Positions 4,215 through 63,387 of a DNA stretch of 64,000 nucleotides are shown piece by piece. Where the stretch lies: NCBI RefSeq assembly GCF_006345805.1, contig NC_043003.1, forward strand, positions 93,248,001 through 93,312,000. The letters are read 5' to 3'. How positions within the stretch are numbered: the stretch's first letter is position 1; every line of letters begins with the position of its first letter. The DNA is from Octopus sinensis. Its lineage: Eukaryota. The position numbers were made by a program, and so were the translations under genes. The notes beneath the pieces are model-generated. The model was not told where the DNA came from, did no database searches, and saw only the letters and a list, made by a program, of their open reading frames with translations.

Positions 4215-4258
4215 TTTCAAACACCGGTGTTTTGCCATGGTTTTGCTTCCTCAGTGAA
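4215..4258 (-). ncRNA. Degenerate type I hammerhead ribozyme motif
   Basis: Minus strand reads ttca-CTGAGGA-agc..ggc-AAAA-caccggtg-TT-tgaa: 4-bp stem I, palindromic stem III, GAAA changed to AAAA. Confidence 0.55.
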
Positions 4259-4391
4259 CGACATTACTTGGGATTCTAGGACTAAATGAGAATAACTGTT
4301 CTTATTTACAAAATTCAATAAACAAAACAATAAAAATCTATGTTTGCGTGTAAATGTGTCAGGACGTAGTAGGATATTATTTTTAAAATTT

Positions 4392-5038
4392 ATTTCAGTC
4401 ATTTGACTGTGGCCATGCCGCAGCACCGCCTTGAATATTTTTTAGTTGAATAAATTGACCCCAGGACTTATTCTTTGTAAGCCTAGTACTTTTTCTATTG
4501 GTATCTTTTGCCGAACCGCTAAGTTACGGGGACGTAAGCACACCAACATCGGCTTTCAAGCTATGATTGGGGTACAGACACAGACGCATACACAAACGCG
4601 CGCGCGCATGCTAACACACACACACACATACACACATATATATTTCTTTATTGCCCACAAGGAGCTAAACATAGAGGGGACAAACAACGACAGACAAAGG
4701 GATTAAGTCGATTACATCGACCCAAGTGCGTAACTGGTACTTTATTTATCGACCCCGAAAGGATGAAAGGCAAAGTCGACCTCGGCGGAATTTGAACTCA
4801 GAACGTTACAGCAGACGAAATACTGCTAAGCATTTCGTCCGGCGTGCTAACGATTCTGCCAGCTCGCCGCCAACATACACACATATATACATACGACGGG
4901 CTTCTTTCAGTTTCCGTTTCGTAAATCTACTCACAAGGCTTTCGTCGGCCCGAGACTATAGTTAAAAACAACTGCCGAAGATGTCACGCAGTGGGACTGA
5001 ACCCGGAACTTTGGGAAGCTAGCTTCTTACCACACATC
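4392..5038 (-). mobile_element. tRNA-derived CORE-like SINE (family A) interrupted by a family B SINE
   Basis: Tail portion at about 4392-4580 and head portion at about 4890-5038 match the other family A copies. Confidence 0.8.
4643..4872 (-). mobile_element. Meta/MESC-like SINE (family B) monomer with Tx1-like tail and 17-bp TSD
   Basis: Head ggcggcgagctggcagaatcgtt, B-box gagttcaaattc, core gtcgactttgcctttcatcctttcggggtcgat, tail ending gggcaataaagaaat. TSD acatacacacatatata at 4626-4642 and 4873-4889. Confidence 0.88.
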
Positions 5039-5284
5039 CACTGGTAAGGGAAATATATTTGTCGCAAAATCCACACGGGATATTTGCAGTTCCATTTTGA
5101 TCTCAGTACCTGCTACCCTAGTCACTGTAATTATAATTCTATCACTTACCCTCATCTGAATTTAACGTCTCTTACTGCTTCTCACTTTCTTTCCATTTGT
5201 CATTTTAGTATCCCTCTGTCTTCCCGAACAAAAGAACATTTGTATTTTATGATAAGTGTTATATATGTTTCATTGAATGCGTGT

Positions 5285-5565
5285 TCTATCTATCTATCTA
5301 TCTATCTATCTATCTATCTATCTATCTATCTATCTATCTATCTATCTATCTATCTATCTATCTATCTATCTGTCTGTCTGTCTGTCTATCCATCTATCTA
5401 TCTGTCTGTCTGTCTGTCTATCTTTCTGTGTGTGTGTCTGTCTGTCTGTGTGTCCGTCTATCTCTGTTTGCCGGTCAGTTTATATGTGTGTATGTGTGTG
5501 TGTGTGTGTGTGTGTGTGTGTGTGTGTGTGTGTGTGTGTGTATGTGTGTTTGTTGTGTGTGTGTA
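5285..5565. repeat. Compound (TCTA)n/(TCTG)n/(TG)n microsatellite
   Basis: Directly visible. Confidence 0.95.
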
Positions 5566-61309: not shown

Positions 61310-62063
61310 CATTTATCTTTTACTTGTTTCAGTCACTTGACTGCAGCCATGCTGGGGCATCGCCTTGAAAGGTTTTTAATCGAAGAAACTGACCCCAGGA
61401 CATATTTTTTTAAAGCCTGGTACTTATTCTATCGGCCTAACCAGTAAATTACGGGGACGTAACCACACCAACATCAGTTGTCAAGCGGTGGGGGGTGGCG
61501 AGCAAATATAGACATAAAGACACACACACACATACATATATATATATATATATATATATATATATATACGACGGGCTTCTTTCAGTTTTCGACTACCAAA
61601 TCCACTCACAAGGCTATAGTAAAAGACACTTGCCCAAGGTGCCACGCAGTAGAACTGAACCCGGAGCCATGTGGTTGAGAATCAAGCTTCTTACTACACA
61701 GCCACGCCTGCGCCTATCTTTAACTTTTTTTCAGTCATTGGACAGCAGCCATGCTGAGGCACCGCCTTGAAGAATTCATCGAATAAATCGACTCCAGTAC
61801 CACTTTTGCCGAATTGCTAAGCAATTGGAATGTAAACAAACCAATACCGGTTGTCAAGCAGCGGTAGAGGACAAACAGAAACATAAAGACACACACGCGC
61901 GCACACAAATATATGCGTATAACAGGTTTCTTTTTCGTTTACCAAATCCACCCACAAGGTCCGGGGCTGTATTAGAAGACACTTGCCCAAGGTACCACGC
62001 AGAGTGACTGAAAGCAAGTCCCCTAGGAAACCAACCTTCTTTAGCTACACAGCCATGCCTGCG
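61310..62063 (-). mobile_element. Two tandem family A SINEs (about 61310-61713 and 61730-62063)
   Basis: Tail-microsatellite-head arrangement occurs twice. Confidence 0.8.
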
Positions 62064-62394
62064 CCATTGATAGTAATTTTTGTTTTGTCTAAGGTTTTTA
62101 TGTTATTGGTAGAACAGTTCTGGGTCAGTGTGAACGAACAGACCTACGACCTACAACCGTGGCAAACTCATCTTTTTTCACATTCAGTGTATCTTGGTTC
62201 ACTTTATCCACTATTTGCTCTAGGGGATGATTTGAAGGATATTTGACTGCTATTTTGGCTATTTCTAGCACGGCGAGCGGCTGCATAGAGGATCCATCGT
62301 TAATTATTTGTTGCTTACAACTTCTTATCCTCTTATTTAATTCTGTAAGTAACAAATTGAATGTAACTGTTCAAGGTAAGATTAAATAAAGACC

Positions 62395-62787
62395 AGGCGT
62401 GGCCGTGTGGTAAGAACCTTGCTTCTCAACCACATGGTTCTGGGTTCAGTCCCACTGCGTGACATCTTGGGCAAGTGTCTTCTACTACAGCCTCGGGCCG
62501 ATCAAAGCCTCGTGAGTGGATTTGGTAAACGGAAACTGAAAGAAGCCCGTTGTATATATGTATGTGTGTGTGTATGAGTGTGCGTGTGTCGGTATTTGTC
62601 CCCCCTTCCATCACCACTTGACGTCCGGTGTTGGTATGTTTACGTCCCCGTAATTTAGCGGTTCGGCAAAAGAGACTGATAGAATAAGTACTATGCTTAA
62701 AAATAAGTCTTGGTGTCGATTTGTTCGACTAAAACCTTTCAAGGCGGGGCTTCAGCATGGCCGCAGTCAACTGACTGGAACAAGTAA
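62395..62787 (+). mobile_element. Family A SINE
   Basis: Head, CORE-like part and tail. Confidence 0.88.
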
Positions 62788-62949
62788 TATATATAACACA
62801 CGCGGAGGCAGTAACACTACCGACGCAACCATCACCTCCAGTGGCACCACCACCGGCACCACCAGTACCAGCACCACCAGAATCAACACCATCAGCAGCA
62901 ACAACAGAGGCACCGACGGCAGCAACAACATCGACAACGACAGTTCGAT

Positions 62950-63387
62950 ATTTAAGAGATGAGGAATTATGTACATTATTTACAATTGACGGATATTTGT
63001 CCTCATCTTGTTTGTTGTTAACGTTGCGGCTGATATACCCTCCAGCCTACATCAGGTGTTTTGGGGAAATTTCGAACCTGGGTTCCCGTTCCTAAGGTAT
63101 TTTTCAATGCTGTTGTTGTTGTTGTTGTTATTACTATTATTCAGGTCACTGCCTGGAATCGAACACGGAATCTTGGGGTTAGTAGCCCGCGCTCTTAACC
63201 ACTACGCCATGTGCTCGTGGGCATAATAATAACAACAACATCGAAAAATACCTTAGGAATGAGAACCCAGGTTCGAAATTTCTCCAAGACACATGATGAA
63301 GTCTGGAGGCTATATCAGCCGAAACGCTGTGTTCACAACAAATAAGATGAGGACAAATATTCGTCGATTGTAAATAATGTAAATAAT
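62950..63387 (-). mobile_element. tRNA-headed element with hammerhead-bearing tail and an inverted tail copy
   Basis: tRNA-like head at 63141-63214 (-) with A-box tggcgtagtgg and B-box gttcgattcc. Arms 62966-63135 and 63224-63387 are inverted and each holds a decayed hammerhead. Confidence 0.78.

What the first reader, a model, noticed from the sequence alone, without database searches (positions are those of the whole stretch)
4215..63387. At least five different hammerhead-bearing mini-element families in 64 kb
Seen: motifs at 4215, 8710, 25049, 46836/46900 and 63020/63289, with weaker ones at 11243, 52987 and 55863. All are type I and most have a tiny or palindromic stem III. Flanking sequences are mostly unrelated, and most lie in partial-tandem or foldback structures next to microsatellites. 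Two PLE endonuclease remnants are in the same window. Known: PLE pseudo-LTRs carry minimal hammerheads with palindromic stem III that cleave as dimers, and non-LTR retrozymes yield circular RNAs. Inference: a large, diverse population of non-autonomous ribozyme elements that use microsatellites as landing sites.
Basis: partly seen in the sequence, partly recalled or inferred. Interest (0 to 1): 0.8.

Follow-up and report, generated by a model that had tools for sequence, protein, structure and literature searches.

The report
Decayed hammerhead ends of Penelope-type retroelements
This repeat-rich animal DNA holds hammerhead self-cutting-RNA motifs from six unrelated repeats, most of them mutated, that are likely the ends of Penelope-type jumping genes; one sits in a multi-copy, non-coding 429-base repeat inserted into a (TA)n tract, a likely new member of the already described animal retrozymes.

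Summary
The motifs are real but mostly decayed. A type I hammerhead scan gives 5 high-scoring sites, against 0.14 in shuffles (0 of 943 reach 5) and 0.15 with decoy cores (0 of 811). Six carry 1-3 core changes; 52987 and 55863 are unsupported. Six sequence-unrelated families are credible.

The best case, 8452-8981, is 1.24 copies of a 429-bp non-coding unit that splits the (TA)n tract of a host repeat. Public contigs show a multi-copy family: none of 11 fixed core bases is listed as variable, both free positions vary, and stem III becomes a perfect palindrome.

Foldbacks, partial tandems, microsatellite ends and dimer-type hammerheads are all published features of Penelope-like elements and their non-autonomous retrozymes. 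Cleavage, expression and circular RNA are not shown. The two endonuclease remnants were not confirmed, and motif-to-microsatellite distance is not significant. New member of a known kind.

The parts
8452..8981 (+). Whole insertion: 5'-truncated partial unit (8450/8452-8552) plus one full 429-bp unit (8553-8981); 1.24 units, non-coding, 38% GC
   Evidence: 103-bp direct repeat, 99% identical. Splits the TA tract of a host composite repeat: of 8 other host copies printed, none carries the insert. Longest stop-free frame on the circularised unit is 72 aa; no Pfam hit for that frame. 581, 430, 75 and 8 contigs laid in 4 runs.
8710..8787 (+). Intact type I hammerhead: core at 8718, 4-bp stem II with 35-nt loop, self-complementary stem III (8771-8780), predicted cut after 8781, bulged stem I
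   Evidence: Only strict hit; top relaxed score 23.6. Stem III self-duplex -10.8 against hairpin -0.4 kcal/mol. In family contigs 0 of 11 fixed core bases are listed as variable, N7 and H17 both vary, and 8776 T>C in about 100% of depth makes stem III a perfect palindrome.
8677..8700 (+). Upstream segment complementary to the 3' half and cut site of the hammerhead (possible local block)
   Evidence: 10-nt perfect complement, reached by 5 of 2000 shuffles. Helix probability 0.92 in a local fold but 0.01 in the whole unit; duplex energy not unusual, 59 of 500 shuffles.
24768..25301 (.). Foldback with 3' ends outward and (TA)n at both outer ends; the hammerhead lies between the arms
   Evidence: Inverted arms 24921-25037/25108-25224 (96%) and 24851-24933/25214-25296 (96%); ends 0 and 9 nt from a tract.
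25045..25105 (+). Type I hammerhead, core intact, palindromic stem III, A.A mismatch at pair 10.1/11.1
   Evidence: Score 19.6, no core change; stem III self-duplex -9.8.
11242..11325 (-). Decayed type I hammerhead (A6>G), long stem II, perfect palindromic stem III; close to an assembly gap
   Evidence: Score 20.5; self-duplex -10.3; N run 11087-11186.
4216..4258 (-). Decayed type I hammerhead (G12>A, weak 2-bp stem II, extra nucleotide after A9), 10-nt perfect palindromic stem III
   Evidence: Score 17.8; self-duplex -16.9.
46785..46986 (.). Foldback with two opposite-strand decayed hammerheads (46898-46939 +, 46834-46875 -); both arms carry U4>C; the + arm ends at (TA)n
   Evidence: 76% inverted match; arm alignment; + copy scores 12.1; end 3 nt from a tract.
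62943..63387 (.). Foldback with two opposite-strand decayed minimal hammerheads (63289-63333 +, 63020-63059 -): no stem III beyond C15.2-G16.2, extra nucleotide after A9, G10.1-C11.1. The core defects of the two arms fall at different positions. The - arm runs about 25 nt further at its 3' end.
   Evidence: 73% inverted match over 62966-63387; arm alignment; + copy scores 8.9. Matches the min-HHR features given in PMC4209133.
52933..53037 (.). Foldback ending in (CTAT)n; only a 4-bp stem-loop plus GAAA remains. Hammerhead unsupported.
   Evidence: 80% inverted match; no scan hit; no CUGANGA in either arm.
55861..55895 (-).
   Evidence: No scan hit; no stem II and a non-palindromic stem III, self-duplex -1.4.
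36620..37300 (-). Candidate PLE GIY-YIG endonuclease remnant, by eye only (recalled motif pattern); heavily broken; not joined to any hammerhead
   Evidence: Six-frame translation; no Pfam hit; 0 phmmer hits among 1.84 billion proteins.
47330..47760 (+). Second candidate endonuclease remnant, by eye only; separated from the 46.9k foldback by a microsatellite
   Evidence: Translation; no relevant Pfam hit; no sensitive search run.

Best explanation
The motifs are type I hammerheads of six sequence-unrelated repeat families, mostly mutated, that are likely the terminal-repeat ends of Penelope-like retroelements (PLEs) or of their non-autonomous derivatives; one family is a multi-copy 429-bp non-coding unit that sits in (TA)n tracts and is likely a non-LTR retrozyme moved by a PLE enzyme. 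Shown here: the motifs, their excess over chance, the partial-tandem and foldback anatomy, the split (TA)n target at 8452-8981, and the family's pattern of variation. Inferred from published PLE biology: a PLE reverse transcriptase/GIY-YIG protein, in trans for the 429-bp unit, nicks AT-rich or microsatellite DNA and starts reverse transcription inside the RNA, here about 200 nt downstream of the ribozyme cut site. It copies more than one unit from a multimeric or circular template, giving the 1.24-unit insert, or adds an inverted 5'-truncated copy, giving the foldbacks. Predicted: the palindromic stem III cannot close as a hairpin, so cleavage would need two hammerheads paired as a dimer or protein help. 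The single-hammerhead copies in this window would be inert by-products that have since decayed.
For: Excess over shuffles and decoy cores. Stem III self-duplex -9.8 to -16.9 against hairpin 0 to -0.4 kcal/mol at the 4 best sites. 99% direct repeat and split host microsatellite. Family contigs in organisms A and B: 36 variable places over 530 nt, none at the 11 fixed core bases, both free core positions variable (N7 U/A; H17 A/C, never G), 7 in loop II, and a stem III change that perfects the palindrome. Contigs cross the unit junction in 3 runs (records 1, 9, 24); one contig joins 8981 back to 8554 with 172 nt upstream; loose ends behind 8543 and 8554 are (TA)n in 4 and 2 contigs; only 0-3% of laid contigs run on into unlike sequence in 3 of 4 runs. 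Circular fold of the unit z = -4.3. Literature: min-HHRs with palindromic helix III, an extra nucleotide after A9, opposite-strand pairs 100-700 bp apart and mostly single motifs of truncated PLEs (PMC4209133); partial tandems, inverted 5'-truncated copies, one-sided tails and microsatellite bias (PMC8557442); internal RT start and AT-rich targets (PMC11167929); retrozymes as non-autonomous PLE derivatives (bioRxiv 10.64898/2026.07.22.740005).
Against: No PLE protein sequence was confirmed in the window, so the PLE link rests on anatomy and literature. Rfam finds no hammerhead. Zero variation at 11 core bases is unremarkable alone (background about 7% of places vary), and the variant table may be incomplete. 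Stems I and II of 8718 are only weakly populated in monomer folds (0.03 and 0.51; 4.8 kcal/mol penalty). Only one family was checked outside the window. In the fourth run 66% of 8 contigs ran on into unlike sequence, and loose ends before 8855 show other families sharing the 3' part. Core-to-microsatellite distance is not significant. The scoring scheme and the element ends were set after seeing the data.
Confidence: 0.75

Rival explanations
1. A live population of retrozymes: several families are now transcribed from tandem master loci elsewhere, self-cleave, circularise and seed solo copies into microsatellites. For the 429-bp family this can coexist with the best explanation.
For: The 99% identity of the direct repeat suggests a young insert. 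Stable circular fold, z = -4.3. 429 nt and 38% GC are close to mussel retrozymes of 350-390 bp (PMC7229834). A contig joins the unit end back to its start.
Against: No locus has two same-strand hammerheads; 8 of 10 motif copies lack an intact core. The joined contig is equally explained by a genomic partial tandem. In Xenopus 8 of 9 predicted dimers did not cleave. In the Anolis PLE the hammerhead was dispensable for insertion in vitro and no reads ended at its cut site.
Confidence: 0.2
2. All motifs are simply 5'-truncated ends of ordinary autonomous PLEs; there is no dedicated mini-element.
For: Most PLE inserts are truncated single repeats. For 5 of 6 families nothing here excludes it. The 3' 190 nt of the 429-bp unit is covered more deeply and is shared with other upstream sequences.
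Against: For the 8718 family the sequence upstream of the hammerhead runs into the unit's own 3' end after 165 nt, in the window and in contigs of 3 runs, with no reading frame over 72 aa.
Confidence: 0.15
3. Chance matches in an AT-rich, hairpin-rich genome.
For: True for the weak sites: 7.9 sites score at least 8 in shuffles and the best shuffled site reaches 18 in about 10% of runs; 52987, 55863 and 31466 are in this class. No Rfam support.
Against: 0 of 943 shuffles and 0 of 811 decoy cores reach the real count; family variation respects the core; paired arms at 63k carry defects at different core positions.
Confidence: 0.03

Closest known systems
Minimal and small-palindromic-helix-III hammerheads in the pseudo-LTRs of metazoan Penelope-like elements (Cervera and De la Pena 2014, PMC4209133; read parts 1-3 of 4, no supplements)
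   Same: Type I topology; palindromic or absent helix III; extra nucleotide after A9 (4254, 63k); G10.1-C11.1 (63k); many divergent families per genome; mostly single motifs; opposite-strand pairs close together.
   Different: No linked RT/GIY-YIG frame was confirmed here. 8718 lacks the extra nucleotide and closes stem II with A-U; its helix III palindrome is 10 nt and loop II is 35 nt. Both 46.9k arms carry U4>C.
Metazoan non-LTR retrozymes (Cervera and De la Pena 2020, PMC7229834, passages and sections 14 and 17; Li, Clavereau and Pollet 2026, bioRxiv 10.64898/2026.07.22.740005, parts 1-3 of 5, supplements closed)
   Same: Non-coding unit of a few hundred bases, under 45% GC, one type I hammerhead per unit, head-to-tail junction, self-paired circular fold.
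   Different: This locus has 1.24 units and one hammerhead: a monomer, not an active retrozyme by the 2026 definition. It sits in a (TA)n tract. Circular RNA is not shown. No cephalopod case turned up in searches; an Octopus vulgaris repeat annotation (PMC13282606, passages) lists 31 recently active Penelope-like families and never uses the word ribozyme.
Structural signature of EN+ PLE insertions, clades Neptune, Naiad and Poseidon (Craig et al. 2021, PMC8557442, passages; Frangieh et al. 2024, PMC11167929, parts 1-3 of 4)
   Same: Partial tandems, inverted 5'-truncated copy at the 5' end, one arm longer at its 3' end, alternative 3' ends, microsatellite or AT-rich targets.
   Different: Naiads lack canonical hammerheads. 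The clade of the mobilising element could not be determined here.

Membership tests
Type I hammerhead ribozyme | CUGANGA, GAAA and UH core in type I order with stems I-III | tested here: met
   Met at 8718; core met but stem II closing pair broken at 25053; 1-3 core changes at 6 copies; not met at 52987 and 55863.
Type I hammerhead ribozyme | Core conserved across family copies while free positions vary | tested here: met
   8718 family only: 0 of 11 fixed bases among 36 variable places; N7 and H17 vary. The other 5 families were not tested.
Type I hammerhead ribozyme | Match to an Rfam hammerhead model | tested here: not met
   No hit at gathering score or at E<=10 on 8600-8880 and 63220-63390. 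That Rfam models miss dimer-type motifs is my inference.
Type I hammerhead ribozyme | Self-cleavage at the predicted site | not testable with these tools
   Needs an in vitro assay; only contigs, no raw reads, were offered.
PLE minimal / dimer-type hammerhead | Palindromic or absent helix III that cannot close as a monomer | tested here: met
   Self-duplex -9.8 to -16.9 against hairpin 0 to -0.4 at 4 sites; 46904 -6.7; 63293 has only the C-G pair.
Penelope-like element (autonomous, EN+) | RT plus GIY-YIG frame between pseudo-LTRs that hold the hammerhead | tested here: not met
   No PLE RT or GIY-YIG hit among 85 frames or 9 read-through frames; 0 phmmer hits. Only part of the window's six frames was scanned.
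Penelope-like element (autonomous, EN+) | Partial-tandem or inverted arrangement with 3' ends at microsatellite or AT-rich targets | tested here: met
   5 of 8 loci have the arrangement; 5 of 9 ends lie within 15 nt of a tract; split host tract and (TA)n loose ends for the 8718 family.
Non-LTR retrozyme | Short non-coding, low-GC, multi-copy unit with one type I hammerhead | tested here: met
   8553-8981: 429 bp, 38% GC, longest frame 72 aa, hundreds of contigs in two DNA runs.
Non-LTR retrozyme | Two or more consecutive units each with a complete hammerhead | tested here: inconclusive
   Not met at this locus (1.24 units, one hammerhead). Short contigs cross the junction but none spans two hammerheads; no genome is held.
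Non-LTR retrozyme | Expressed as monomeric circular RNA | not testable with these tools
   Contigs cannot show strand, ends or circles, and the RNA label of the two runs laid is a guess.
Non-LTR retrozyme | Homology to the pseudo-LTR of an autonomous PLE in the same genome | not testable with these tools
   No genome held; loose ends before 8855 hint at relatives sharing the 3' end.

The most novel reading that the evidence does not exclude
The 429-bp element is a still-active circular-RNA retrozyme, likely of an octopus (taxon from recalled SINE sequences), that spreads as dispersed inserts of about 1.2 units into (TA)n tracts instead of building tandem arrays. It is one of many such families riding on microsatellite-targeting PLE enzymes. 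Its thousands of insert ends, mapped against the ribozyme cut site, would show directly whether hammerhead cleavage and RNA circles are steps of PLE-driven transposition.
Probability: 0.2. Interest if true: 0.55.

Novelty: new member of a known kind. Interest (0 to 1): 0.3.

Why it matters
The kind of element is known, so the main value is annotation: six hammerhead-bearing repeat families, and one defined 429-bp retrozyme-like family, in a lineage where my literature searches found none described. What the PLE hammerhead does is still open: it was dispensable in the only in vitro PLE system (PMC11167929). A young, high-copy, non-coding family with a defined junction, target and cut site would be a convenient natural test of whether cleavage or circles shape the inserts.

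Tried and rejected
No whole genome is held, so no genome-wide scan was possible.

Rfam: no gathering-level hit; the top 150 of 243 E-value rows were microRNA-type and other noise, mostly on microsatellites; the two local scans gave no hammerhead.

Endonuclease remnants: Pfam on 85 of 251 stop-to-stop frames and on 9 read-through frames, and phmmer on one frame of 36550-37299, found no PLE domain. The 47.3k candidate had no sensitive search.

Microsatellite adjacency of motif cores: not significant in any of 9 tests. The end at 63387 was dropped from the end-based count because its masked neighbour is an internal duplication, not a microsatellite; two ends of a hammerhead-free foldback were also left out.

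Sequencing runs: no RNA holder listed; 20 of 24 rows hold part of the stretch (9 studies, shares 0.20-0.42, none half or more). I laid 4 of the 20 holders; no places where many molecules begin or end were reported.

Summed contig depth rises just 3' of the predicted cut (X1 29.7k to 120k, X11 810 to 1546). I do not use this: contig depth is no copy number and several contigs break at 8804-8809.

A possible compensatory change in stem II (8727 G>A in contigs; a matching change only in a loose end of another run) was not seen in one record and is not counted.

An off-switch role for 8677-8700 was rejected as unproven because the helix vanishes in the whole-unit fold. Scan hits at 31466, 565, 18787, 52688 and 16655 were rejected as chance-level. 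ARAGORN found no tRNA gene. Type II and III permutations were not scanned. Look-ups of earlier findings by sequence and by my first word set returned nothing.
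Full report
Setting. The window is AT-rich animal DNA with 115 tandem-repeat rows, LINE and DDE-transposase remnants and many copies of SINE-like repeats. From recalled SINE sequences it looks like an octopus; no call confirms this. No whole genome is held.

Are the motifs there? I read all ten coordinates on both strands and ran two type I descriptors. 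The strict one returns one zero-mismatch hit, core at 8718(+). The relaxed one allows two core changes, one mismatch per stem and a bulge. Lower come 46904(+) (12.1) and 63293(+) (8.9), each with two core changes. The partner arms at 46869(-) and 63055(-) are too damaged to score but align with their mates. At 63k the defects of the two arms fall at different core positions, as expected for two decayed copies of a once-complete minimal hammerhead. At 46.9k both arms share U4>C. 52987 has no CUGANGA and 55863 no stem II; I count them as unsupported. So 2 of 10 copies keep the core and 1 of 10 keeps core and stems.

Is it more than chance? With simple repeats masked, 5 sites score at least 17.5. 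The null gives 0.14 in 943 block dinucleotide shuffles (none reaches 5) and 0.15 for 811 decoy cores on the real sequence (none reaches 5). The weak end of the list is at chance level: 16 real against 7.9 expected at score 8. The score was written after I saw the candidates. Rfam gives no hammerhead hit (one search showed 150 of 243 rows).

Are they different families? The hammerhead-bearing parts of the eight loci have no BLAST cross-hits at E<1e-3, so six families are credible: 4254, 8718, 11320, 25053, 46.9k and 63k. At the four best sites stem III is a palindrome that pairs with a second copy (-9.8 to -16.9 kcal/mol) but not with itself (0 to -0.4). One locus is a partial tandem, four are foldbacks with 3' ends pointing outward, and three are neither.

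Microsatellites. Tracts are so dense that core-to-tract distance is not significant in any of nine tests (P 0.06-0.45). Element ends are more telling: 5 of 9 ends, placed by eye, lie within 15 nt of a tract against 6.4% background (P about 1e-4). The clearest case is 8452-8981. It splits the TA tract of a host composite repeat, and none of the 8 other host copies printed carries the insert.

The 8718 family. The insert is a 103-bp partial copy plus a 429-bp unit; the repeats are 99% identical. The unit is 38% GC, folds as a circle with z = -4.3 and has no frame over 72 aa. Twenty of 24 listed runs hold part of it. I laid four: two likely DNA runs of organisms A and B, and two of organism A whose RNA label is a guess; 581, 430, 75 and 8 contigs fit. 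Of 36 variable places, 12 fall in the hammerhead: 7 in loop II, 1 in the stem I bulge, 1 in stem II, the two free core positions (N7 U/A; H17 A/C), and 8776 T>C. The last change, in about all depth, turns stem III into a perfect 10-nt palindrome. None of the 11 fixed core bases is listed. That absence alone is weak, but the whole pattern is what selection on a dimer-type ribozyme would leave. Contigs of three runs cross the unit junction, one contig runs from 8981 back to 8554, and six contigs end in (TA)n at two positions 11 nt apart. Only 0-3% run on into unlike sequence in three runs (66% of 8 in the fourth). This is a compact, closed, non-coding unit that lands in (TA)n. Contigs cannot show expression, ends or circles.

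Endonuclease remnants. By eye, 36620-37300(-) and 47330-47760(+) resemble broken GIY-YIG frames (recalled pattern). Pfam and phmmer on the first give nothing, and neither is joined to a hammerhead. The claim is unconfirmed.

How it most likely works. Shown: motifs, anatomy, target and family variation. Inferred from the literature: a PLE protein nicks AT-rich or microsatellite DNA and starts reverse transcription inside the RNA downstream of the hammerhead (PMC11167929). Copying more than one unit gives partial tandems; an inverted truncated copy gives foldbacks, often with a tail at one end (PMC8557442). Predicted: cleavage needs a dimer or protein help (PMC4209133; PMC11167929). Single-hammerhead inserts such as these would be dead ends. 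Against a live circular-RNA population: no locus has two same-strand hammerheads; monomer folds populate stems I and II weakly; 8 of 9 predicted Xenopus dimers did not cleave; and the Anolis hammerhead was dispensable for insertion in vitro.

Comparison with what is known. Many divergent minimal-hammerhead families per genome, single motifs from truncated PLEs and opposite-strand pairs are in PMC4209133. Retrozymes of 350-390 bp are known in a mussel, and a coral has 16 hammerhead families (PMC7229834). A 2026 preprint derives animal retrozymes from PLE pseudo-LTRs. The 429-bp unit works like a retrozyme monomer but fails the two-hammerhead criterion at this locus. No locus passes the test for an autonomous PLE. 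Searches found no cephalopod hammerhead report, and an Octopus vulgaris repeat paper has no occurrence of ribozyme in its main text. Subscription papers, Repbase entries and unopened supplements could hold one. What I saw of each paper: PMC4209133 parts 1-3 of 4; PMC11167929 parts 1-3 of 4; the preprint parts 1-3 of 5; PMC7229834 passages and two sections; PMC8557442 and PMC13282606 passages; no supplements. Earlier notes of this scan report similar findings in other genomes; they are unchecked and are not used as support.

Verdict. Observation partly confirmed, interpretation partly supported. A good catch, but a new member of a known kind: interest 0.3. The boldest reading left open is an active, dispersed, (TA)n-targeting circular-RNA retrozyme (probability 0.2, interest 0.55).

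Noticed in passing
window 16615-16934, 3042-3178, 12126-12180, 18902-18952, 25537-25600: Further foldbacks without a convincing hammerhead. 16615-16934 has microsatellites at both outer ends and may be another truncated PLE-type end.
   Followed up: partly
window 8677-8700: Antisense segment that sequesters the cut site in local folds but not in the whole unit. PMC7229834 says such blocking is typical of plant retrozymes and viroids rather than most animal ones.
   Followed up: partly
window 46869(-) and 46904(+): Both arms carry U4>C in the core, so the template already had it: either copied dead or a natural core variant of this family.
   Followed up: no
window 8855 (loose ends): Contigs in three runs share the last 125 nt of the unit but have a different upstream sequence: a sister family or the autonomous partner.
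   Followed up: no
window 430-2940: LINE remnant with RVT_1 and zf-RVT hits flanked on both sides by (TCTA)n/(TATC)n tracts; a second zf-RVT piece lies at 30607-31032(-). Other retroelements here also sit in microsatellites.
   Followed up: partly
window 40515-42210: DDE_1/Tc5-type transposase remnant on the minus strand with terminal inverted repeats seen by eye.
   Followed up: partly
window 23880-24140 and 57810-58230: Two small elements with inverted termini (by eye) that enclose telomere-like (CCCTAA)n/(TTAGGG)n runs.
   Followed up: no
window 10432-10989 and 20001-20485: SINE-like repeat in tandem arrays of period 183-184, 2.6-3 copies.
   Followed up: no
window 11340-11970: AT-rich stretch beside the 11320 motif with a transposase-like peptide by eye but no Pfam hit. 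The motif might instead overlap a DNA-transposon end; the other side is an assembly gap.
   Followed up: partly
window 24775-24830 and 25320-25375: Two similar AT-rich termini in the same orientation, one at the outer end of the 25k foldback and one just beyond its other end; possibly related PLE 3' ends.
   Followed up: no
window 31419-31510: Scan hit at 31466 (score 18.3, one core change) next to a small foldback; within the range of the best shuffled score.
   Followed up: partly
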